Assembly (NCBI GenBank): GCA_000002445.1
Contig: CP000069.1
Span: 1,536,001 to 1,600,000 of the forward strand
Origin: Trypanosoma brucei
Taxonomy: Eukaryota
Reading direction: 5' to 3'
Length of the DNA stretch: 64,000 nt
Positions 8,991-63,350 of this stretch are shown piece by piece; the stretch's first letter is position 1, and every line of letters starts with the position of its first letter. Under the pieces are notes generated by a model. It did no database searches. It saw only the letters and a list, made by a program, of their open reading frames with translations, and was not told the origin of the DNA. A program made the translations under genes and the position numbers.

Positions 8991-9269
8991 CTTTTTCTGT
9001 TATAACTCAAACTTATATTCACATAATTAGAAAAAAATTATAATGACACTCATCTTTAATACTCTATCACCTTCCTGATTTGCACCCCTACGCACTTTTC
9101 ATACACATTTTACTATATCTATATTTTCAAAATAAATATTCATTATTTTTCAAATGCTTGACAAAAATTATTAAAATATATCACCTTTTAGTATATTTTT
9201 TAAAAACAGGAAATTTTATAAATTTAAACCAAAATATTTTAGAGTACTTTAAATATAATAGCAAAAATG

Positions 9270-9560
9270 CGAGCCAAAGAAAATCTTTGTTAATGACAAC
9301 AAAATTTCTTCCTGTGGTTTTTTTTCATCCTTTCTTCCTGTTGCTTCGTTCGTTACTTCTGCTCCTGCTTGTTGGTCCACCCAACTCATTGTGCACTTTT
9401 TCTTGGTTTTCTTTGCTTCTGAGTTCCATTCGCAGGGTTCTTGGTAATATCGTTATTTATCTTTGGCGTCGCAGTCTTTTTCCGTTTGTTCTCGCTTTTC
9501 TTTGCTAGAGGTAGGTACTTGGTCGCCAAGTGACTGCATTTTCTGCACTGGTAATTCTTC
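9270..9560 (-). pseudogene. VSG C-terminal-domain / 3'-end remnant, truncated at the ingi insertion
   Basis: Minus-strand translation gives '...EPCEWNSEAKKTKKKCTMSWVDQQ...KKPQEEILLSLTKIFFGS', a CxW..C C-domain pattern. The 3' end ('gcaaaaatgcgagccaaagaaaatctttgttaatgacaacaaaatttcttcctgtgg') is homologous to the 3' end of the VSG pseudogene at 55090-56530. There is no N-domain upstream. Confidence 0.5.
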
Positions 9561-9738
9561 CTCCAGGCTAAAAATCAATACCTCCCTTTTTTCTGCTCCA
9601 ATTTATTGCCTTGTTTGTTGTCCTATGACCGCTGCTTTTAATTTGGTTGCCTCTGCCTGCTCCAGTGCTTTTCCTCTTCCCATTGACTTTTTTACGCAGT
9701 CTACGTCTTCGAATGCCGTCTGTTCTTTCTATCTGATA

Positions 9739-9816
9739 CCCTGGAGATGCCGGCCACCTCAATGTGGTGCCAGGGTCCAGTACCCCGTATCATCGGGGGA
9801 AGCCAAGAGCCAGCAG
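9739..9816 (+). promoter_or_regulatory. Pr77 hallmark (ingi/RIME/L1Tc 5' internal promoter / ribozyme-like region)
   Basis: The first ~78 nt of the element match the Pr77 signature shared by ingi/RIME, L1Tc and SIDER. Confidence 0.7.
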
Positions 9817-10238
9817 CGTTCCTTTCATAGGGAACACTGCTGTGCTCCGGCTACGGCATCATACAGCACAGGGATCAGCAGCGTCTTGCTGGGACATCGT
9901 TTTTCATTTGTCGGTCCCTGAGCACGTGCCAGCGTGCCATCAGCAGTATATCATCCGCACTAAGATGCTGCTGTCCGGTGATGTGGAAGAGAATCCCTGC
10001 CTGTCGTTTCACGGGATGCAGTGGAACTGCGCCGGGCTATCTCAAGGAAAGAGATTAGCACTCCACAAAACCCTTGTTGATGAGCGGATCGCCTTTTGTC
10101 TGTTGAGCGAGACAAGGATGACGCCTGGAGAGGCGGCTTGCTTTAGCGTTGCTGGCTACCAACATCACGGAATAGCTCGTAACTGCAAAGGATGAGGTGT
10201 ATCAATACTAGTGAGAGGACATACCAGTCGAGACCGGT

Positions 10239-11100
10239 ATGGCCGTTGTTGGTCGCATTGAAAAAGTGCATGCAACAATTCACCTTGCACGTGGAACGGC
10301 GCTGACTGTCACGTCGGCATACATCCCACCAAAACACACCTTCACGGCAACTGACCTAGATACGCTTCTGACGACTGACGGTGCCCAGCTCATCGGTGCA
10401 GACGCTAACGCACACGCGTTGGCATGGGATCGCGCGAGCCCACCAAATACCAAGGGTGAAACCCTCACACAGTGGTGCATTGACAACCAGTTTCTGGTCT
10501 GCAACACTGGTGAGTGCACCAGGTACGAGCGCCACCACGGGGAGTCCACCCCTGATGTGACACTGTCAAGGAATTGCACAGTGTACACGTGGACATCGCT
10601 GTATTCTCCCGATAGCGATCACCATCACATATTTTTCGACGTTATCTTTGGAGACGACACAGATGCACTGAGCTGCCCGCGGCTTCGAAAGCCCATGTAC
10701 GCATGGCTAAAAGCTGACTGGAGGAATTTCCGTCTCAAGGTTGACGACCTCTGCAGGAAAATTGGTAGAGAGAAGAATGTCAACACCCTGGAACAGATAT
10801 TGAGCTCCGACATCTGCATTGCGACGAAGGTCTCCGTCCCCCGTGGCTGCAGAGCAACGCCACCACATTGGACACCTGAGCTCGCGAAACTCGATGAAGA
10901 GATCGCTGGATGCGGACCCTCCCACCGAAGGGAAAAGTTGGTAGCCACGCGTAAGCAGATCCTGGACCGTACCACAAAGAAGAGATGGAGCACGCTATGC
11001 TCCAGACTTGCGGTGTCAGACCGCTGCAGTTGGCACATTGTCAAGAAGGTATATGCGCCACGACCACTAACCACACCGGCTGTACTTGTTGATAACGCGG
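10239..11100 (+). pseudogene. ingi ORF fragment: apurinic/apyrimidinic-endonuclease-like domain
   Basis: A 407-aa ORF piece reading '...ALTVTSAYIPPKHTF...GADANAHALAWD...' has EEP-fold character. It is out of frame with the neighbouring pieces. Confidence 0.6.
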
Positions 11101-11386
11101 CCATCACGGACTACCGTCAAGCTGAGAGGTTCAGTAAACTGTACTCTTCCCGCGCAAGAAGGCACCCCGACTCACACCCACCGGCACCAATAAAGACGAT
11201 AGCGAGTGAGTTCAGTCCCATCACGATGGCTGAACTACGGAGATCGATCAAACTGCTACCGAGTGGATCCGCAGCCGGACCTGATTGCTTATACAACGAG
11301 GCACTGCAACATCTCGGCAGAACAGCGCTGAATGTTGTTGTGAGGCTATTCAATGAGAGCCTACGAACGGGAGTCGTGCCGCCTGC

Positions 11387-12496
11387 ATGGAAGACTGGTG
11401 TTATCATCCCCATCCTGAAGGCCGGAAAAAGGCGGAGGACCTCGATTCTTACAGGCCTGTGACGCTCACGAGCTGTCTCTGCAAAGTCATGGAGCGCATA
11501 TTTGCCACGAGGCTTAGAGACACTGTTGAGTCCCAGCTGACGCCGCAGCAATCAGGCTTTCGCCCCGGATGCTCAACGCTCGAACAACTCCTGCACGTCC
11601 GCGCTGCCCTCTGCCGCCCCACGCACCAATATCGTACGGGTGCTGTATTCGTCGACTACGAGAAGGCATTTGATACAGTAGACCACGACAAAATTGCGAG
11701 GGAAATGCACAGAATGAAGGTATCACCCCACATTGTGAAGTGGTGCGTATCATTTCTGAGTAACCGAACTGGCAGAGTGAGATTCAAGGAGAAGCTTTCC
11801 AGAAGCAGAACATTTGAGCGAGGAGTGCCACAGGGAACTGTCCTTGGCCCAATCATGTTCATTATTGTCATGAACTCGTTGAACCAGCGCCTTGCAGAAG
11901 TGCCGTTACTGCAGCACGGATTCTTTGCAGACAACCTGACGCTACTTGCGAGGCACACAGAGAGGGATGCCATCAACCACACACTACAATGCGGCCTAAC
12001 CGTGGTGTTACAGTGGCCAAAAGAGTACTTCATGTCTGTCAACGTAGCGAAAACGAAGTGCACACTCTTCGGGTTTATAGAGCGCCACCCCCTTACATTA
12101 CAACTGGACGGCAAAAGAATAGGAGCTGGCAGGACACCGAAGCTTCTAGGAGTAACATTCCAGTGTCTGCAGGGGATGGCAACACATGCTGCAGAAACGA
12201 GACGCAAGATGGATTTTAGACTACTGCAGATAGCAGCCATCTCAGCTTCTACATGGGAGCCAAGAAGACAAGTACTGAGAGCTTTTTATCTAGCACTCGT
12301 ACAGGCACACACCATGTATGGCATTGAGGTATGGTACTGGGACGCTTCGGAACGAAGTCGCGACCTCCTTGCAGCAGCACAACACAAAGCCAGTCGCATC
12401 ATAGCTGGCATACCGCATGGGACGCGCAAAGAGGACTCTCTGCTGGAAGCAAACCTCCTGCCACTCAAGACGACCGCTCTTGTGCGCAGCACGTAA
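11387..12496 (+). pseudogene. ingi ORF fragment: reverse transcriptase domain
   Basis: A 369-aa ORF reading '...YRPVTLTSCLCKVMERIFATRL...GFRPGCSTLEQLL...AVFVDYEKAFDTVDHD...GVPQGTVLGPIMF...FFADNLTLLA' shows the canonical RT motifs 1-5. Confidence 0.8.
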
Positions 12497-12699
12497 TTCA
12501 TGCTGATGTGTGAGTCACGAGGCGGATGTTTGCGCCACAGTGCTGAGAAAGTATACCACAGCAAACACCCAGTCAGAGTCTTACATTCCCGCATCATGCG
12601 GTCCTATCCCCACCTCCACATTGAGCCACGCGAGCACCCACTAGAGACATCGACGCTCCGCCACAGTTGCCGACCGCTATTTCACACGCAGATAAAGCC

Positions 12700-14460
12700 C
12701 GTATGCGCTGATGACCCTGACGATGTCAAAAGGGAGGCTTCCGAAAAATGGATTGCACGGCATTTTGCACGGAGGGGGAAGGAGCCACCGCGGCGAGAGC
12801 ACTACGAATTGTGGACTGATGGATCCGTGTCCCTCGGTGAGAAGTCCGGAGCAGCTGCCCTACTCTATAGAAACAACACGCTGATTTGTGCACCCAAGAC
12901 CTGAGCAGAGGAACTCTCATGCAGTTACAGAGCGGAATGCGTAGCATTAGAGATAGGACTGCAACGGCTGCTAAAATGGCTTCCGGTATACAGAAGCACA
13001 CCGAGCAGGTTGTCCATCTTCTCTGACTCGCTGTCAATGTTAACAGCACTGCAGACAGGCCCCCTAGCCGTAACGGACCCAATTCTAAGACGACTATGGA
13101 GGCTTCTGCTTCAAGTTCAGAGAAGGAAGATACGTATCCGACTGCAATTTGTGTTTGCCCATTGTGGCGTGAAACGGAATGAGGTTTGCGATGAAATGGC
13201 CAAAAAGGCCGCTGACTTACCACAGTTGCGAGACACATGGATCCCCGACATCATTGCTTATGCGAAGCGAGTGCTTAGATCGGAAGAAGTCCATGAGAAC
13301 ACTCATAGGTTTGGTATCACGGGCAACCACTTTCCAACAAAACATAAAGAAGAACTGACGAGGGAAGAAGAAACGGCACGGGCACGCTTTCGGGTTGGGT
13401 CTTCAAGACACTATGGATGGATGTTGCGAAAGATCAACCCGAGTGTGCCTCCACAGTGCCGATGGTGCAACCCGCAACATGCAGCGATAGGACCAACAAT
13501 ACAAACAGCCCCACCTGTTGCGACACGCACTCTTCAGAGAACCTCCGAATCAAACAAATGTACGGAATGTGATGCCACATACCAATGCCGCTCGAGTGCT
13601 GTAACGCACATGGTAAACAAACACGGCTTTGTGCGAGCTGATGCCCTCCGGAGGATCAAATACGGCGATGCAACACCCGCAGTGGATATCCCCCCGGAGC
13701 CCCCTCCAGTGGTGGCGATCGTTCCTCTACCATCGAGCACACGAGTCCCGATGAGACCGCAGGTGCTTCATTGTACCCTCTGTGCCTCCAAATTCGCAGT
13801 GCCAGGCCGACTATTACACCACCTTAGAACAATACATGGCATAGGCAGCGGTAGTTGCCGCGTGAAAAGGGGGCGAGAGAACGAAGACTCAGTGCAAGGA
13901 GATGGTAGCGTCCCAGCAGCGCCAGCCTCTCAGGATACACGGAAGCTGCCGTTTCAATGTGACTTGTGCGAGGCGAGCTTCGGTACACACTCTTCCCTGT
14001 CACTACACAAGAAATTCAAACATAAGAGCATAGTGACGGAGGACGGTACCGTGGTGTTGGTGCAATTCCCTCGTAAGCGTGCCCGTGAGGGAAACGTTGA
14101 CGTCCCGGGGAAGGGCGAGGTGCAGTGTGGTGTGTGCCAAAAAAGTGCTCAGTTGCGGGGCCTCCCTCATCCGACACTGTAAGGCTTTCCACAAAGGTGA
14201 GGGAGTCGAGCTTAAATGCAGCAAAATCACAAAATTGGGTGCCACTGATTCCCCGCATACAAACACATCCATGTTGGTGTGCCAGACAGGCGGAAGGCAG
14301 TGTGCTAGCAAAACTGGCCTCACCCTACATCAAAAGAAGATGCACGGTATGAGAGCAGAGCGCACTGTTACGAGCCAACGCGGCGACTGCAAAGAAACGT
14401 CGCTGCACCTGATGAGCTGTCCAGGTTTGAAGGAGTTACGTGTCAGGTTTGCGGTAGAGG
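12700..14460 (+). pseudogene. ingi ORF fragments: RNaseH-like and C2H2 zinc-finger C-terminal region
   Basis: 'HYELWTDGSVSLGEKSGAAALLY' is the RNase H DxxS/TDGS motif. ORF 13010-14182 carries several Cx2Cx12Hx3-4H fingers. Confidence 0.65.
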
Positions 14461-15027
14461 GTGTGTGTGTACAAGATGTATGTTTCTCTAAAAGGCTGGC
14501 GCAATTTCTCATTGCGGTTGAACGGAGCCGGCCGCAGGTGAAGTCCTCACCTAAGGTAAAAGTCATACAACCCACTCTCCCTTCTGCAACTTCCCCCTTA
14601 TTTCTGAGAGTGGAGCTAGCAGGAAAAGCACCGGACGCATGAATAGTCCAGACACCCTCAGAGACAGAGGGGGTATGCAATCAACAAGCAACAGAAACAG
14701 AAAGAGGGAGAGAGAATAATAAACGAATAACAAAAATCAAAACAAAAGGATTGCTAATTGACATCTTCGGGAGAGTCTGGGGAGGGGTTCTTTTCGCCCC
14801 ATCTGCTGTAATGTGTTCAACTGCGGAGCTACAACAAAAATTATAGAGGGTGTGTTAGGATGAATAAAAAAGGGAGACTCTGCCACAGTCGCCAGACCGA
14901 TAGCATCTCAGGGCTCTACGGTGATGGCTGATGGCCGCGCCAGTGGGGGGAAACTCTCACGAAGACACGAAGAAAATTCAAAAAAAAACGAACACACTCT
15001 TCTTCGCACCCTTGTTTGGTGGTTAAG

Positions 15028-15575
15028 TAGAGTGCTTGTCGAACATTGTACAAGGGTAGATCCCAGGGGGCGGAGAGTATCTAGCTTACACTAAGAATGA
15101 ATCTGCCTCAATGTGGCGCCAGGGTCACGTACCAGAAGAGAAATCGACTGGAAAGCCAAATGTTCCATCCAAAAGTCGGTTGCAATACTGAATATGCTGT
15201 GGCTGCTCCATGAAGAAAGAACCATTACTTAGTGTTGCACCACGGTTCAGTACCCTGCTCAGGTGGGGGAACCAAAATCCCTGACCCAACTTCCGGCCGG
15301 GGAGGCAGATGGATATGGTAAACATGGTTCAGATGCAATGTGGGAGGGATCGAATGGGCGTCAAGTGGAGACCACCCCCCTAGACACGCACACATGCGGT
15401 CTCTCACCCGTGGGTATCAATTCTCCAAAAAACAGGGAATTTCAGTGGGTAGGCACGCTGGTCTCCAGCGCTGAGTCCCACACTACCATATCGTCGTGGC
15501 GTGGTGTGCGTAAATGCATTTCCTCCTTACCATCGGGTGGACAGACTGCATGGTCCTGAAGGTTGCGCGAGGGGA
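15028..15575 (+). mobile_element. ~550-bp dispersed element, copy 1: tRNA-like segment, then a Pr77-like motif ('CTGCCTCAATGTGGCGCCAGGGTCACGTACCAG'), a body, and an A-rich end; unclassified, possibly a SIDER/DIRE-like retroposon
   Basis: It is homologous in inverted orientation to 60285-60862. The segment ~15077-15353 is 100% identical to the other copy, and the flanks are ~80-85% identical. It starts with A-box/B-box-like motifs 'TTTGGTGGTTAAGTAGAG...GGGTAGATCCC' and ends 'GGGGAAAAAG'. It sits 40 bp 3' of the ingi poly(A). Confidence 0.6.
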
Positions 15576-15598
15576 AAAAGTAACGGTTGATTCTATCT

Positions 15599-16130
15599 TT
15601 AATCAGTTATTTTAAGCATTTCATTAACCGCCTTTTCAAACTTTTTGAATTCCCAAACTCTAGCTATTATGTCACCTTTATTGAAGTGTGCTTTATAGTT
15701 TGCAGGCCACTTTAACATATGAGTTAGTTTCTTTTGTTCCTCTTCTTGGCATGTTGCTTCAAAAAAAAACATGCGCACCTCTCCATATGCTCCCTGTGAT
15801 CTGAGTTCAAAGTCAAGTACAGCCGAAGCGCATAACACTTGGTAGTCGTTACAAATATAATGGGATAAACTTGTTTCTCTTTTACTACATCCTCCTCGCT
15901 AAACTTCCCTTCATTTTCCGCAGTGTTTTGTATAAAATACCCCACAGCGGTTTCATATTTTTCTCCGTCAGTAACAATAACATCAGATCCGTCAACAGTT
16001 ATCACAATATCCTCATCAATTTTATCCTGTTTTTTAAAAATTTACATAACCCATCTAGCTCTTTTGACATTGCTATGCAAGTTTCCCATAGCAATTGTAA
16101 TAATTTTAACATGGCTTAGTTTCGCACTCA
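15599..16130 (-). pseudogene. Small-ORF family member, copy 1 (in-frame stop and frameshift); function unknown
   Basis: Minus-strand translation gives '...SAKLSHVKIITIAMGNLHSNVKRARWVM*IFKKQDKIDEDIVITVDGSDVIVTDGEKYETAVGYFIQNTAENEGKFSEEDVVKEKQVYPIIFVTTTKCYALRLYLTLNSDH...'. It is colinear with the copy at 53781-54149 and ~80% identical at the nucleotide level. Confidence 0.5.
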
Positions 16131-17232
16131 GTATGTTTCCCGTCGTGTACACTTAGAGAAATAACGTGCTTAAACACACTAAATGTAATAACAATGATAA
16201 TAGCAAAGTTTTCAAGATACAAAACTATATTCCTAATCTACATTTAAAGTTTAAAAGTGCTATAAGAAAAATATTGAAACTTTAATAGAAGATGCCATTT
16301 GCGCCAATAAGATGTTTACATATATGAGTAATTCCTTAACATAGTTATGATATATGTGCCGATGTGTGTATTATCAGTGTATGAAACTTATTTTTGAAGG
16401 CGTACCTATAATTTTTTAAAAAAACTTTACTTTCAGTAACACATAGTGCCGCACACTATGTGTATTGCGTTGCTTTGCTGCATTGACAATTAGTGCCTAT
16501 GCATTTTTATTGGAATGAAGGTATCTAGTTGCAGTGATTAATTCTAACATGCTATAAAATTTGCCACCCTCGCTTGATGACTACCTCGACCATTCGCTAT
16601 CGTCAAGTGCCTCCAATCAAAATGGTTTCCGAACTATTTATATTGTTGTTTCAATCACATCCGTAGAAGAATCTATTTATTTGTGAGTGTATTTTAGAAC
16701 ACAACCTTCTCCTATATATTATTTTCTTTTATGCTTGTTGCAGTGCATGTTTCACTCCACATTTTTTCTCATATTTATTTCCTTCCGTCGCTGCTTATGC
16801 ATATTACGCAGTGACTTCATTTAGCCTTCAAACTGTTCTTTGTCCCTGCCTCTTCCCCATCTATTTGTGTATGATGAAAGCTATCGCCACTTTTCAACTT
16901 CAAACTGCGCATATTTTATCTATATCTCCTTCTTTCTTTTCTTAAATAGCATTATTTGTGTCTTCTCCCTGTCTTAATAACTGCACCACTCATTCACTTA
17001 CTCTCATCATACCATGGTAATTTTTTTCAACGGTTTAATTTTGTCTCTCCATTCGATCACTTAAAAAAACTTTCCTCATAATGTTAATAAATGCGCTTAA
17101 AACACTCTTTTATTATTACTATTAAAATAACAGATTAGAATATCACTCATTTTTAATATTCTATCACTGTACACGTTACACCCATAGGCCACTCTCATAT
17201 ACATTTTACTATTTGGAACATTTTAATCAAAA

Positions 17233-36271: not shown

Positions 36272-36745
<474 letters not shown>

Positions 36746-53097: not shown

Positions 53098-53276
53098 CTT
53101 TATCTTTGTGAAAAAACATTTAGGGCCGTTGTGTAATTTAGCGTTGGCGCCTGAAGATTTGTCGAGTTTACGAAACTTCTCAGTGGCGATGAGAGCTTGT
53201 TTAAAGGAAGTTTTTGATTTAGTCATGTGCTGCAGTGTGAGAGAATTCGGTTGTGTTAGATTTAAGTCACAACTTC

Positions 53277-54149
53277 TTAGCCTTGACAAAATCTTTTTCT
53301 ACAACTGCGGCTCCACAAATACTCCATATTCAATATACCATTTCCCACCATATATCCCATAACTTTGAATTTCCCCCAATGGTTCGTATTAAATTTCCTT
53401 CTCTCAAATTCTCTATAACAACTAAGATTTTTTACAATAAGCTTTGCTTTTTCCTCCAATGCAATTAGTTGTTGTGTAAAATGAATGAATGGCGCCTCTT
53501 CGACTTCACTATGTGGAATAGTAAAAAATCTCTCATCAAAACTAATCGCTGAGCAACAGCTTCTTCCTGAATTGCACTCCATATTAGCAAAGATTTATAA
53601 ATACTTTGTTACGACCATTATTCTTCACTTCCTTTCGATAGGTCTTTAAAATCTAATTCAAATTTCTTAAACGCCAACTCTCTCGCTATCAAGCCAACAC
53701 CACTAAGACAGTGTTTGCCACAAGAATTAGACTTCAGAAAATGAGGTATTTTTTATCCTATTCTTTCCTGTATCCAATATTTAAAAACAATACACATTTC
53801 TCCAACGCTCTTTGTGATCTGAATTATCGAGCAACTCTAACTGAGATGCATAACACTCTGATGTTGTCATGAATATAATAGTGTAAATTTGTTTCTCTTT
53901 GATGACATCTTCTTCACTACCTTTTTCGTCATTAGCTGCACTATTTTGTATAACATATTCCACAGCATTCAAATACTTATCATGTTCGGATATTATATCA
54001 GCCGGTCCATCAACAGTAATGACAATATCCTCATCACTTGCATTCTGTTTTTCTAAAAATTCCATAACCCATCTAGGCCTTTTAATATGACTATACAACC
54101 ATCCCATTTCAATTGTAATAATTTCAACATTTCTTACTTTGGCACTCAA
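53277..54149 (-). pseudogene. Small-ORF family member, copy 2 (122-aa ORF plus a downstream out-of-frame continuation); function unknown
   Basis: ORF 53781-54149 reads 'MSAKVRNVEIITIEMGWLYSHIKRPRWVMEFLEKQNASDEDIVITVDGPADIISEHDKYLNAVEYVIQNSAANDEKGSEEDVIKEKQIYTIIFMTTSECYASQLELLDNSDHKERWRNVYCF'. It is ~80% identical at the nucleotide level to 15850-16130. It sits between a 70-bp repeat at 54750-54830 and the VSG at 51573-53097. Confidence 0.5.
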
Positions 54150-54749
54150 TATGAGTCTACACCATTCTTTAGTTGCATGAGTTTGTCACTACAACCACAA
54201 ATACTCTTTGTTTTCTCATGGTAATTCTGTGTTTGATTTGCCGTTGTTTCTCTTCAAGAGATATTGAGCTTAAATAAACTAAATGAAGCAAAAGTACAAA
54301 AATACTAAACTTAGTGCCCTAATCTATCTTTAAAATTTGATAGGGTTATAAGAAAAACTTATAAAAGCTTAATAAAAAATACAGTTTGGCCACTAATGTC
54401 TTTACATAAGCAATCCCTTGACATTGTTGTGATACAGCTGTTGAAGGGTCTGTACTTAGTGTTGGTGTCTTCCATTTGAGAAATCATTTACATTCTTTTA
54501 GTTTAAGAAGATAGCTTCAATTTCACCTAGTTAAGCACACTAATCTTTGACTATAACTCATTATCACCTCCATCATATCTTCGTTTACGATGAGATCCAA
54601 TTGTCATATCGATGTTTAAATCCGCATATATTCAACATAAATGAGTCTTTTTTCCCCTTCCTCTCTCACTTACTCATTTACTTGTTGTTCACCGTTACCA
54701 TTATTTTAAATGCTTTTATTTTTTCGTTGACTTAGTGTTCTTCACCGCT

Positions 54750-54830: not shown

Positions 54831-55089
54831 ATCATAAAAAACATAAAATAAACTACAAAAAACCCAATTAGAATAGCACTAATTTTTTATGCTCTATCAC
54901 TGTTTTACTTTACACTCAGAGGCCGATGTTACACGAATTTTTCTAAATTTTAAAATTTACGTTAAAAAGTGTTAAAATAGAAGACATTCTTATATTATAA
55001 AGCAGATTTTATTAACTTCATAAAATTGAGCAAAAATATTTTATAAATTTAATTACAAAAGCAAAAATGCAAGCCAAAGAGGGGCCTTA

Positions 55090-56530
55090 TTAATGATAAA
55101 AGAATTTCTTTCTGTGGTGTTTGTGTTTGGAGCTGCTGTTGTAGTTTTTGCATGGTCTCCTCCGCATTTGCTATCTTTTAATTCACACTTTTCCCGGTTG
55201 CAGTCATCTTCTTTGTCCCTTTGCATTCGATACTGGTGGGTCTGTAGCGGTTATCGTCTTAATCTGCACTTGATTTGCATTCATACCGCGACAGAATGCT
55301 AGTGCTGTTGCGTAGCCACCACTTGTGGCGATAGCAGGTAATGATCGTTTCAGTTGATCGTCGCCGAGAGGGTTGGGAAGTTTGGTGTTAGACAACGTGT
55401 TGAGGAAAAGTTCCTTGACCTTTTTTGTTTTGTCGCCCAACAAATTTTCTACTTCTTTTTTAGGGTGTCTGTTGTTTGGGCTGTGGTCGCCTTGTCTGTT
55501 GTTACGAGCCACGCAGCTTTCTGGGAATCTCCGTCGTTGCTGAGCTCTGCGATTGTGTTATCTTGCAATGTAGGTGTTGTTTGGAAGACTAAGTTTTTCA
55601 GTTGGCGTATTACGTCTGCGGTTTGTGCTACTGTTAGTAATGTGGTCGCTGTGTGCCCGGTGTGTTCGGAGTTCTTGGTTGAGCTGCCTGGCGCCTGGCT
55701 CTGTTGCTTGGCTTGCAGTGTTGTCGCCGTCGTATAGCGTGTAATCGCCTTCACTCCCACATGGTGTGTGTTTTTACCAGCTCGTTAACCGCGTTGTTGC
55801 CGGCGGTGTCAGAGCCGCAGCCGATGCCCGTCCCGCCTAGTGGATGTTTGATATTTGCTCCTGCCCCGTGGTATGTTATAGTGATCTTGTAGTTTATGAA
55901 TGCGAAGGCGTCGTCAGGTGTCAGCGACACTTGTGTTATCTCTGCGTGTCACCGTGCTGCTTCTTTGAGCTTGCTCTCCGTGCTTGAGTCTTGTGGGCAT
56001 AGGTCTTGTTTTTCCTGCTTTGCATTGACATACGTGGTGCATGTCGCCGCTGTACCGCCTGTTGCCTTGTTCCCACTGTCGTTGTTTGTTTCGCTCGCCT
56101 TGGCCTTGGACACACCTCCGGCTTGGTTCGCCATTAGCGCCGTTAGGGCTCCTAGCCGGCGATTTAGCAAGTTAAGTAGCGGGTCTATTGTCTGTTGGAT
56201 GGTTTCTATCTCCCCCTGTAGCTTGGTTCTTCTTTTTTCTGCTGCTGCTACCAGTGCGAGATACTGTTGTTGCTGGCGCAGTGTGGCCATTGCGCAGGCT
56301 GCTAGTTCGAAAGTTTGTTGCTCTTTTTTAAGCTGGTCCAGGTTTGTTATTGGAGTTGCCAGCTTATCGGAAATGGCTGCTTGTGTCTCTCTGATGAATT
56401 TTATTTGCTGGTAAGGCGTGGTTATTGTCGCGGCTAGGACGCCCGCTGATTCTGCTGCCACGTTCCGTACCTGTGCTGCCAGTGCTGCTGCGAAGATTAT
56501 TAAAGTCGCCGTGCTTTGATTGCAGGTCAT
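55090..56530 (-). pseudogene. VSG pseudogene (type-B N-domain; multiple frameshifts; alternative C-terminal type)
   Basis: ORF 55949-56530 reads 'MTCNQSTATLIIFAAALAAQVRNVAAESAG...QQYLALVAAAEKRRTKLQGEIETIQQ...'. ORFs 55449-55760 and 55204-55512 follow in other frames. The 3' end '...DDCNREKCELKDSKCGG...NTNTTERNSFIINKAPLWLAFL' is homologous to the remnant at 9270-9560. Confidence 0.75.
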
Positions 56531-59975: not shown

Positions 59976-60284
59976 ATTTATTGTGTGTTGATGGTTATAC
60001 GCTTAGATGCTTTGCACTCTAAAATAGATGCGTTGGTTTCATTTCAAAGGAAGTTAGGGAACTCTTGAGGCGCCTTGCCGTGTACTTTGGCACTTACCCT
60101 CACGGGTTGGTACCTGTCGTTCATTTTTATCAGAAAAAGTTGTTCTTTATGCGTAGTGCTAATACTTCTTCCGGGTTTTGTGGGTGGTATCGCAACGATG
60201 CCTTGCCGCTGGAGGCTCAGATTTCCGCTTTGGCGTAAATTCCTTTTTAAAATTCTATACTCGTTGACTTTTTTAAATTTTCCA

Positions 60285-60862
60285 CCGAGCAACCGTCAGG
60301 TCCATGCAGTCTGACCAGCCGAGGGTAAGGCTTAAATGCATTTATCCGCACCACGCCGTGAGGACATGGTAGTGTGGGACTCAACGCTGGAGGCCAGCGT
60401 GCCTATCCACTAAAACCCCCTTTGTTTCTTTGAGAATCGACACATACAGGTGGGCCACCGCATGTGTGCGATTCTAGGGGGCGTTGTCCATTTGCCGTCC
60501 ATCCGATCCCTCCCACATTGCATCTGAACCATGTTTACCATATCCATCTGCCTCCCCGGCCGGAAGTTGGGTCAGGGATTTTGGTTCCCCCACCTGAGCA
60601 GGGTACTGAACCGTGGTGCAACACTAAGTAATGGTTCTTTCTTCATGGAGCAGCCACAGCATATTCAGTATTGCAACCGACTTTTGGATGGAACATTTGG
60701 CTTTCCAGTCGATTTCTCTTCTGGTACGTGACCCTGGCGCCACATTGAGGCAGATTCATTCTTAGTGTAAGCTAAATAATCTGCGCCCGCGGGGATTCAC
60801 CCAGGAATTATCTGCGACGAGCACTCTACTTAACCACTAAACCAGGGGCCGGTTAAGTTGCT
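60285..60862 (-). mobile_element. ~550-bp dispersed element, copy 2 (inverted relative to copy 1)
   Basis: The reverse complement carries the same tRNA-like segment ('GGTTTAGTGGTTAAGTAGAGTGC...GGGTGAATCCCC'), the same Pr77-like motif, a ~277-bp 100%-identical core (60507-60783) and the 66-aa ORF 60531-60731, which is identical to ORF 15125-15325. Confidence 0.6.

Positions 60863-63007: not shown

Positions 63008-63350
<343 letters not shown>

What the first reader, a model, noticed from the sequence alone, without database searches (positions are those of the whole stretch)
9739..14988. Opposite-strand degenerate ingi retrotransposon interrupting the VSG array and truncating a VSG
A ~5.25-kb element has the Pr77 5' end, APE, RT, RNaseH and C2H2 zinc-finger coding potential split over at least 6 frames, and an A9 tail. 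It is inserted on the + strand inside an otherwise uniformly minus-strand VSG array. Immediately 5' of it (9270-9560) only the 3' end of a VSG survives. Together with the ~550-bp element and a small-ORF pseudogene it forms a 6.4-kb non-VSG island (9739-16130). No obvious target-site duplication flanks the element ('ctatctgatac' versus 'cgaacacactc'). That points to a post-insertion rearrangement or to insertion by recombination rather than simple retrotransposition.
Basis: partly seen in the sequence, partly recalled or inferred. Interest (0 to 1): 0.5.

Follow-up and report, generated by a model that had tools for sequence, protein, structure and literature searches.

The report
Dead ingi retrotransposon in VSG array
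This is an ordinary, full-length but mutationally dead copy of the well-known Trypanosoma brucei "ingi" jumping gene sitting inside a silent surface-antigen (VSG) gene array; its only unusual feature is that it landed at an atypical site and about 1.5 kb of the host DNA seems to be missing there.

Summary
Window 9739-14988 (+) aligns end to end, at about 95% identity, with three full-length T. brucei ingi copies. It has the Pr77/79-bp signature at nt 1, both RIME halves, endonuclease, RT, RNase H and four C2H2 fingers, and an A9 tail. The reading frame is broken by four frameshifting indels and three stop codons. All 14 VSG 3'-UTR 16-mers in the window lie on the minus strand, so the ingi is antisense to the array. 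No 12-bp target-site duplication exists at any offset.

New points:
- The 34 bp upstream of the element score 3/10 on the ingi endonuclease target motif. That is background level; seven control ingi/RIME junctions score 7-10/10.
- The "~550-bp element" is a 572-bp SIDER-type relic with a second copy at 60 kb.
- The "small-ORF pseudogene" is an ESAG3 pseudogene fragment.
- By analogy with a paralogous cassette at 51.5-54.2 kb, about 1.5 kb is missing: the ESAG3 3' end, a spacer, and about 340 VSG codons.

The exact element ends combined with a non-target 5' flank favour a non-canonical retrotransposition with target deletion over ingi-ingi recombination. Neither mechanism is proven. The element type and its context are already known, so interest is low.

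The parts
9739..14988 (+). Full-length degenerate Tbingi non-LTR retrotransposon (5250 bp)
   Evidence: It aligns end to end at 95.0-95.5% identity with L004, L005 and L006. It is 2.6% diverged from a 5-copy consensus.
9739..9817 (+). 79-bp signature / Pr77 hallmark at nt 1 of the element (internal promoter and HDV-like ribozyme region in this clade)
   Evidence: The first 120 nt are 91-96% identical to the 5' ends of four other ingi/RIME elements (alignment). The function is taken from PMC4035085 and was not tested here. There is no Rfam family match.
9739..9987 (+). RIME-A half (5' ~250 bp shared with RIME)
   Evidence: Matches L002 13444-13199, the 5' half of a free-standing RIME, at 94.4%.
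9965..14719 (+). Remains of the single long ingi ORF (ATG 9965 to TAA 14717-14719). It reads as 1585 codons after four indel repairs, with three internal stops.
10010..10640 (+). AP-endonuclease domain, split by TGA 10193-10195 and a 2-bp deletion at 10214/10215
   Evidence: Pfam Exo_endo_phos_2, E=1.5e-13. Lesions are shown.
11429..12157 (+). Reverse-transcriptase domain. A 1-bp deletion in an A-run at 11425/11426 lies just upstream.
   Evidence: Pfam RVT_1, E=1.8e-42. Best protein hits are T. b. gambiense and T. b. equiperdum RT fragments at 90-93% identity.
12800..13215 (+). RNase H domain, interrupted by TGA 12902-12904. TAA 12494-12496 lies upstream.
   Evidence: Pfam RNase_H, E=7.5e-06. 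Stops are shown.
13562..14193 (+). Four C2H2 zinc-finger motifs. The fourth is split by a 1-bp insertion at 14139.
   Evidence: Regex C..C.{12}H.{4}H on the repaired translation, aa 1200-1410.
14739..14988 (+). RIME-B half ending in an A9 tail (14980-14988)
   Evidence: Matches L002 13191-12944 at 90.8%. The tail is read directly.
9168..9738 (-). VSG 3' remnant: 3'-UTR 16-mer (9168-9183) plus about 160 degenerate codons of the C-terminal domain and the end of the N-terminal domain, cut off exactly at ingi nt 1
   Evidence: The 16-mer matches with 2 mismatches. DNA similarity of 9212-9322 to 55014-55122, at the same offset from the 16-mer, is 77%. Weak blastx hits map to VSG aa 408-451. Composition is coding-like up to 9738. 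There is no Pfam or database hit.
9705..9738 (+). 5' flank of the ingi. It lacks the ingi4 endonuclease target motif (3/10) and would hold the 5' TSD copy (TTCTATCTGATA).
14989..15008 (+). 20-bp spacer between the ingi tail and the SIDER relic. It is probably a sliver of the ESAG3 pseudogene (codons ~259-264). Its first 12 nt (CGAACACACTCT) are where a 3' TSD copy would be.
   Evidence: Matches the ESAG3 paralog at 11 of 12 positions with one gap, at the expected place. This is suggestive only.
15009..15580 (+). SIDER-type short degenerate retroposon (572 bp) with two internal Pr77-signature copies and an A-rich end. It is an older, separate insertion.
   Evidence: A second copy lies at 60278-60847 (-), 89% identical. 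Signature alignment scores are 47 and 41, versus 17.5+/-3.1 for shuffles. Size and definition come from PMC2323293 and PMC4035085.
15611..16134 (-). ESAG3 pseudogene fragment (aa 63 to ~253 of 368), truncated at the SIDER relic
   Evidence: phmmer gives E=1.8e-44 for the paralog against ESAG3. tblastn gives 61% identity, E=6e-51.

Best explanation
Identity (near certain, about 0.97). This is a complete but dead copy of the T. brucei ingi non-LTR retrotransposon (Tbingi, ingi4 subclade). It lies antisense inside one cassette of a silent subtelomeric VSG array.

Origin (inferred, about 0.5). The element arrived by retrotransposition of a full-length, poly(A)-tailed ingi RNA. The 5' end of that RNA is set at nt 1 by the Pr77 promoter/ribozyme. 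Integration was non-canonical. It was not made by the usual pair of staggered nicks at the GTxGGxT target motif, which produces a 12-bp duplication. Either second-strand joining happened far upstream of the first nick, or the cDNA was captured at a pre-existing break. Both routes remove target DNA.

What was lost. A paralogous cassette runs VSG 51573-~53100, about 200 bp of spacer, then ESAG3 pseudogene 53270-54185. By that analogy the missing stretch is about 1.5 kb: ESAG3 codons ~264-368, the spacer, and about the first 340 VSG codons. The result is a VSG 3' stump fused to ingi nt 1, with the ingi tail 20 bp from an older SIDER relic in the ESAG3 pseudogene.

Current state. The copy cannot encode its own machinery, because it carries 4 frameshifts and 3 stops. 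Two of those lesions are shared with a copy at an unrelated locus. The RNA was therefore probably already defective and was mobilised in trans. Today the element is inert apart from offering 5.25 kb of dispersed homology and, presumably, Pr77-driven transcripts.
For: Identity:
- End-to-end alignment at about 95% with three full-length ingi copies.
- RIME halves at both ends.
- APE, RT and RNase H by Pfam, and four C2H2 fingers.
- Homologs are T. brucei-group RTs. More distant ones are named 'Tbingi protein' by their sources.

Non-canonical site:
- No TSD at the junctions, at any offset within 60 nt, or elsewhere in the window.
- The method detects perfect 12-bp TSDs in the controls L005 and L002-RIME.
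- The 5' flank scores 3/10 on the published ingi4 motif. Seven controls score 7, 7, 8, 8, 8, 9 and 10. The background is 2.68+/-1.44, and only 0.6% of window positions reach 7 or more.

Arrival as a unit: the alignments begin at nt 1 and end at the A-tail. PMC4035085 places ribozyme cleavage at the 5' side of +1.

Deletion:
- The VSG remnant stops at about aa 341 of about 500.
- The other side of the ingi holds 20 bp, then the SIDER relic, then ESAG3 aa ~253 back to 63.
- The paralogous cassette shows the intact order.

Trans-mobilisation: TGA 10193 and the 11425 deletion are shared with L005, which lies in a core region with its own TSD.
Against: - The insertion mechanism is inferred by elimination. 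No empty site or orthologous locus could be found.
- The target motif is a statistical preference, and only seven controls were available.
- The 12 nt after the tail fit 0 of 3 conserved TSD positions. A canonical first nick there is therefore not supported either.
- The 1.5-kb estimate rests on a paralogous cassette that is only about 72% similar.
- The VSG nature of 9540-9738 rests on composition and reading-frame continuity, not on homology.
- Target-deleting or endonuclease-independent insertion is documented for human L1 (from my own knowledge). I found no report of it for ingi.
Confidence: 0.5

Rival explanations
1. Ectopic or unequal homologous recombination between two ingi copies. Each copy was inserted canonically at a different site. 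The recombinant element keeps the 5' flank of one parent and the 3' flank of the other, so the TSDs do not match and the DNA between the parents is lost or translocated.
For: - The TSD is absent.
- TSD-less ingi are common in my small sample: L004 and L006, the latter also between VSG genes.
- Ingi copies are about 95% identical over 5.25 kb, which makes them good recombination substrates.
- Subtelomeric arrays are known to be recombination-prone (PMC3553974).
Against: - Recombination inside the element preserves a genuine ingi target site on the 5' side. The window's 5' flank scores 3/10, at background. Both TSD-less controls keep 8/10 and 9/10.
- There is no mosaic pattern of relatedness along the element, though five copies give little power.
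- There is no partner element or reciprocal TSD in the window.
Confidence: 0.25
2. Canonical insertion followed by an unrelated deletion, or by a VSG gene-conversion event, that removed the original 5' flank (motif plus TSD) and happened to end at ingi nt 1.
For: VSG arrays undergo frequent segmental conversion and decay. The VSG here is a 3' fragment, a common class in arrays (from my own knowledge of published VSG archive surveys).
Against: - The breakpoint would have to coincide with nt 1 of the element to the base. For a random break this is about a 1-in-10^3 coincidence.
- A conversion tract needs homology on both sides, and none is evident at the ingi edge.
Confidence: 0.12
3. Assembly artefact: two different loci were joined through a collapsed ingi repeat.
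For: Ingi is a 5.25-kb dispersed repeat. The left and right flanks share no TSD. The source assembly could not be identified.
Against: - A chimeric join would still leave a real target motif on the 5' flank, and none is present.
- The 16-mer spacing, once the ingi is subtracted (2816 bp), is a normal cassette length.
- The array continues in the same orientation on both sides.
Confidence: 0.05
4. The element is not an ingi but another trypanosomatid LINE (SLACS/CZAR, L1Tc-like, or a DIRE).
For: None beyond the generic APE, RT and RNase H domain content.
Against: - It is 95% identical in nucleotides over its full length to T. brucei ingi copies, and it has RIME halves at both ends.
- Its flanks are a VSG and an ESAG3 pseudogene, not a spliced-leader gene.
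- It is only 2.6% diverged from the consensus, far less than a DIRE would be.
Confidence: 0.01

Closest known systems
Tbingi (ingi, ingi4 subclade) of Trypanosoma brucei
   Same: It is 5250 bp long. It has the 79-bp/Pr77 signature at nt 1 and a RIME half at each end. It has one long APE-RT-RNaseH-C2H2 ORF and a poly(A) tail. It is about 95% identical to other copies. It is subtelomeric and lies within a VSG array, as reported in PMC2323293 and PMC3553974.
   Different: It has no 12-bp TSD and no upstream GTxGGxT target motif. The ORF is disabled by 7 lesions, which is the usual state of ingi copies.
TbRIME (500-bp non-autonomous partner of ingi)
   Same: The first ~249 bp and the last ~250 bp of the element are the two halves of RIME (the L002 control).
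   Different: The window element retains the 4.7-kb coding core. There is no separate RIME in the window.
Human L1 insertions with target-site deletion, or endonuclease-independent insertion at DNA breaks (from my own knowledge; not retrieved here)
   Same: The retro-element ends are intact, a poly(A) tail is present, there is no TSD, the site is off-consensus, and target DNA is lost at the insertion point.
   Different: It belongs to a different LINE clade. Endonuclease-independent L1 insertions are often truncated, whereas this copy is full-length. The mechanism has not been demonstrated for ingi, and no empty site is available here.
TbSIDER (short interspersed degenerate retroposons; the neighbouring 572-bp element)
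   Same: Its length falls within the published 558-587 bp range. It has two Pr77-signature copies (the SIDER2 definition in PMC4035085) and an A-rich 3' end. The two copies are about 80% alike outside a converted patch, in line with the published 8-18% divergence from the consensus.
   Different: It has no TSD and no upstream motif. The signatures start about 95 nt into the repeat, not at its very start.

Membership tests
Tbingi | Length about 5.2-5.25 kb | tested here: met
   5250 bp, 9739-14988. Full-length colinear alignment with elements of 5249-5264 bp. A 'complete INGI' is about 1-5250 bp in PMC4660242.
Tbingi | 79-bp signature (Pr77 hallmark) at the 5' extremity | tested here: met
   The element begins CCCTGG at 9739. 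Its first 120 nt are 91-96% identical to four other ingi/RIME 5' ends.
Tbingi | Half of a RIME element at each end | tested here: met
   9739-9987 and 14739-14988 match the contiguous halves of a 501-bp RIME that has a perfect TSD (L002 12944-13444).
Tbingi | Single long ORF encoding APE, RT, RNase H and C2H2 zinc fingers | tested here: met
   Domain order confirmed by Pfam and regex. The ORF is interrupted by 4 indels and 3 stops, so it is a pseudogene.
Tbingi | 3' poly(A) tail | tested here: met
   A9 at 14980-14988. The controls end in A8-A12 at the same position.
Tbingi | 12-bp target-site duplication (a mark of canonical insertion, not of family identity) | tested here: not met
   1 of 12 positions match. 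No TSD at any offset. Positive controls L005 and L002-RIME match 12 of 12.
Tbingi | Upstream ingi4 endonuclease motif AxxxxxxxTxxxGTxGGxTxxx^xTxTxxTxxxxx (PMC3820030) | tested here: not met
   3/10, versus 7-10/10 in seven controls. Background is 2.68+/-1.44.
Tbingi | Retrotransposition competence or activity | not testable with these tools
   The coding capacity is destroyed, so autonomy is excluded by sequence. Transcription and siRNA production need RNA data.
[quoted passage not shown] | Highly diverged vestige, recognisable mainly at protein level | tested here: not met
   The element is only 2.6% diverged from the ingi consensus and about 95% identical to other copies.
SLACS/CZAR | Site-specific insertion in spliced-leader RNA genes | tested here: not met
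   The flanks are a VSG remnant and an ESAG3 pseudogene/SIDER. No SLACS reference sequence was compared.
TbSIDER2 (neighbouring 572-bp element) | About 560-590 bp, two Pr77 hallmarks, A-rich 3' end | tested here: met
   572 bp. Two signature copies score 47 and 41, versus 17.5+/-3.1 for shuffles. The element ends GGGGAAAAAG. Assignment against the published consensus was not possible.
ESAG3 (the 'small-ORF pseudogene') | Sequence homology to the 368-aa ESAG3 protein | tested here: met
   The paralog gives E=1.8e-44 and 66% identity to a cluster whose members are named ESAG3. Window 15611-16134 covers aa 63-236 at E=6e-51, with frameshifts and stops.

The most novel reading that the evidence does not exclude
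The ingi integrated by a non-canonical route, either target-primed reverse transcription with a large target deletion or endonuclease-independent capture of ingi cDNA at a DNA break. In one step this destroyed two thirds of a VSG and the end of an ESAG3 pseudogene. If this signature (exact element ends, no TSD, background-level target motif) recurs among array-borne ingi, retroposon-mediated break repair would be a so far undescribed contributor to erosion and fragmentation of the VSG archive.
Probability: 0.35. Interest if true: 0.4.

Novelty: already known. Interest (0 to 1): 0.15.

Why it matters
It matters little on its own. Ingi elements are already known to be abundant, mostly defective, mainly subtelomeric and present inside VSG arrays. 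TSD-less copies are also familiar. The one modest point of value is methodological. Scoring the upstream endonuclease motif separates TSD-less copies that kept a genuine target site from copies that never had one. The first pattern is expected after ingi-ingi recombination and is seen in L004 and L006. The second pattern is seen in this copy. Applied genome-wide, that simple test could show how often ingi insertion itself, rather than later recombination, deletes VSG sequence.

Tried and rejected
- Rfam scan of 9000-17000 for a Pr77/HDV-like ribozyme family: no relevant hit.
- Orthologous or source locus by exact-protein look-up of two intact window VSGs: not on record. Blast of the window flanks against all seven fetched loci found only generic array repeats. 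The insertion could therefore not be dated or compared across strains.
- VSG remnant: Pfam at E<=1 found nothing. The 5.8-billion-protein search found nothing at E<=1e-3. tblastn against the window found only itself. Only weak blastx hits to VSG C-terminal domains were seen (E 0.25 and 0.86 in a tiny database).
- 5'-transduction idea, in which a TSD copy would sit further upstream: the 12-mer after the tail does not recur upstream. Rejected.
- Reciprocal TSD or partner element inside the window: none.
- Consensus ORF from five copies: it is still broken, because lesions are shared and coverage of nt 320-460 is thin. Lesions were therefore mapped against sibling copies case by case.
- Mosaic (recombinant) structure of the element: no signal, but power is low.
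- SIDER1 versus SIDER2 assignment by upstream motif: neither motif is present at either copy.
- Key primary papers are not held in the library: Bringaud 2004 Mol Biol Evol, Bringaud 2009 Eukaryot Cell, and Kimmel 1987.
- Early blast tables mixed two loci per file. This was corrected.

Full report
WHAT IS THERE. The stretch 9739-14988 stands out from its surroundings by composition. Its GC is about 0.53 and its AT skew is positive, against a T-rich array with GC 0.3-0.5 and negative AT skew. It starts CCCTGGAGATGCCGGCCACCTCAATGTGG... and ends ...GAAGAAAATTC(A)9.

Translating the RT-containing frame and searching the protein collection returned T. brucei gambiense and T. b. equiperdum reverse-transcriptase fragments at 90-93% identity. 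More distant hits are named 'Tbingi protein' by their sources. I fetched the DNA around seven such genes. The window element aligns as a single colinear block, from its first to its last base, with three full-length elements:
- L004 2486-7749, 95.0%;
- L005 7045-12293, 95.3%;
- L006 8247-13506, 95.5%.

Its first ~249 bp and last ~250 bp match the two adjoining halves of a free-standing 501-bp RIME, L002 12944-13444. This composite structure defines ingi (title of Kimmel et al. 1987 as cited in PMC3820030; PMC4660242). Pfam finds Exo_endo_phos_2, RVT_1 and RNase_H in that order. Four C-x2-C-x12-H-x4-H fingers follow. It is an ingi.

HOW DEGENERATE. I compared the element with sibling copies in a MAFFT alignment. 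It carries these lesions:
- TGA at 10193-10195;
- a 2-bp deletion at 10214/15;
- a 1-bp deletion in an A-run at 11425/26;
- TAA at 12494-12496;
- TGA at 12902-12904;
- a 1-bp insertion in an A-run at 14139;
- a 1-bp deletion in a C-run at 14595/96.

With the four indels repaired, the frame reads 1585 codons from ATG 9965 to TAA 14717, with only the three stops inside. The element is 2.6% diverged from a five-copy consensus, the same as every other copy. It shows no obvious mosaic structure. TGA 10193 and the 11425 deletion are shared with L005. That copy sits in a housekeeping region with a perfect TSD. These lesions therefore predate the insertion, or were spread between copies by gene conversion. 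In the first case the RNA that made this copy could not have encoded a working protein and was mobilised in trans (inference).

CONTEXT. All 14 matches to the conserved VSG 3'-UTR 16-mer are on the minus strand, spaced 2.5-3.7 kb apart (1.3 expected by chance). The long minus-strand ORFs are A-type or B-type VSGs by Pfam. The ingi is the only large plus-strand feature.

Left of it lies a 16-mer (9168-9183). Then come about 160 degenerate codons whose 3' part resembles other VSG C-termini. Their coding-like composition continues unbroken to 9738. Homology evidence for the upper part is weak, so 'VSG remnant truncated near codon 340' is an estimate.

Right of the ingi lie 20 bp and then a 572-bp repeat (15009-15580). 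That repeat has a second, inverted copy at 60278-60847. It contains two copies of the Pr77 signature and an A-rich end, so it is a SIDER-type relic. SIDER2 elements carry two hallmarks (PMC4035085), and TbSIDERs are 558-587 bp (PMC2323293).

The 'small-ORF pseudogene' is a fragment of ESAG3. A paralog at 53781-54149 hits a 368-aa protein cluster named ESAG3 at E=1.8e-44. tblastn maps ESAG3 aa 63-236 to 16134-15611 and aa 52-368 to 54185-53270. In the 51.5-54.2 kb cassette the ESAG3 pseudogene lies about 200 bp upstream of a B-type VSG. ESAG3 is therefore a normal cassette component, not part of a foreign 'island'.

In the ingi cassette the ESAG3 reading frame runs up to the SIDER tail at about aa 253. 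The 20-bp spacer on the far side of the SIDER resembles ESAG3 codons ~259-264 (11 of 12 positions with one gap, at the expected position). This is suggestive only. The likely history is that a SIDER inserted long ago into the ESAG3 pseudogene. Later the ingi came to lie between ESAG3 codon ~264 and VSG codon ~341. By analogy with the paralogous cassette, those two points should be about 1.5 kb apart.

TARGET SITE. Ingi-clade elements make a 12-bp TSD. Tbingi/TbRIME are preceded by AxxxxxxxTxxxGTxGGxTxxx^xTxTxxTxxxxx (PMC3820030). My controls reproduce both features. L005 and the L002 RIME have perfect 12-bp TSDs. All seven control 5' junctions score 7-10 of the 10 specified positions in the exact register.

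In the window the flanks are TTCTATCTGATA and CGAACACACTCT, matching at 1 of 12 positions. No TSD appears at any offset within 60 nt; the best is 9 of 12 away from the junctions, and 48% of shuffles do as well. Neither 12-mer recurs meaningfully elsewhere in the window. The upstream 34 nt score 3/10. Across all 127,932 positions of the window the mean is 2.68+/-1.44, and only 0.6% reach 7. Two control ingi also lack a TSD: L004, and L006, which likewise sits between VSG genes. Both keep motif scores of 8 and 9.

MECHANISM. Recombination between two ingi copies explains mismatched flanks, but it preserves a true target site on the 5' side, as in L004 and L006. This copy has none. A later random deletion or MMEJ event would have to end exactly at nt 1. 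Both ends of the element are exact. This is what is expected when a complete RNA is reverse-transcribed in full (PMC4035085 for the 5' end being fixed at +1).

The simplest reading is a retrotransposition event at a non-canonical site with loss of about 1.5 kb of target. This could be second-strand joining upstream of the first nick, or capture at a pre-existing break. That is analogous to L1 target-site deletions and endonuclease-independent L1 insertion (from my own knowledge; not shown for ingi). I rate this reading at about 0.5, ingi-ingi recombination at about 0.25, a later deletion or conversion at about 0.12, and mis-assembly at about 0.05. No empty site or orthologous array could be obtained, so the mechanism remains an inference.

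KNOWN OR NEW. About 60% of T. brucei ingi, RIME, DIRE and SIDER elements are subtelomeric (PMC2323293). Ingi are reported within subtelomeric VSG arrays (PMC3553974; PMC4660242). Most copies are non-functional; only a 'few retrotransposition-competent ingi' exist (PMC2323293). The element and its setting are therefore already known. The only mildly interesting point is the combination of exact ends, no TSD and no target motif next to a truncated VSG. That hints at insertion-coupled deletion and is testable genome-wide.

VERDICT. Novelty: already known. Interest 0.15.

Noticed in passing
window 15009-15580 (+) and 60278-60847 (-): Two inverted SIDER-type relics 45 kb apart share a 271-bp tract of perfect identity (15082-15352). 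It is flanked by 77% (5') and 80% (3') identity. This looks like a recent gene-conversion patch between dispersed retroposon relics, or assembly smoothing.
   Followed up: partly
window 15611-16134 (-) and 53270-54185 (-): ESAG3 pseudogenes lie inside the VSG array. The 53-kb copy is nearly full-length (aa 52-368) and sits about 200 bp upstream of a B-type VSG. The 15-kb copy is cut at about aa 253 by the SIDER relic.
   Followed up: yes
window 10193-10195 and 11425/11426; L005 (T. b. equiperdum CM010676.1): Two disabling lesions of the window ingi (a TGA and a 1-bp deletion) are shared with a copy at an unrelated core-chromosome site that has its own perfect TSD. This implies a defective master copy mobilised in trans, or gene conversion between copies.
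   Followed up: partly
window 9980-10003: The 2A-like motif DVEENPGP at the start of the ingi ORF is intact in L005 and L003. It is mutated to DVEENPCL here and to DVEKNTGP in L004.
   Followed up: no
L006 8247-13506 (T. b. equiperdum QSBY01000014.1): This is another full-length ingi lying between VSG genes. It also lacks a TSD but has a 9/10 upstream target motif, the signature expected after ingi-ingi recombination.
   Followed up: partly
L002 ~9630 and L003 ~8985 (corresponding to window 12849-12902): Two ingi copies share a 54-bp deletion in the RNase H region and are 98.5% identical to each other. They form a recent sub-lineage or a duplicated segment.
   Followed up: no
window 36307-36734 and 63048-63350: Long (TAT)n tracts of 143 and 101 units lie between VSG cassettes, presumably the TAA/TAT-rich part of 70-bp-repeat regions. 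The 16-mer spacing also leaves a 7-kb stretch (43.5-50.5 kb) without a recognisable VSG 3' UTR.
   Followed up: no
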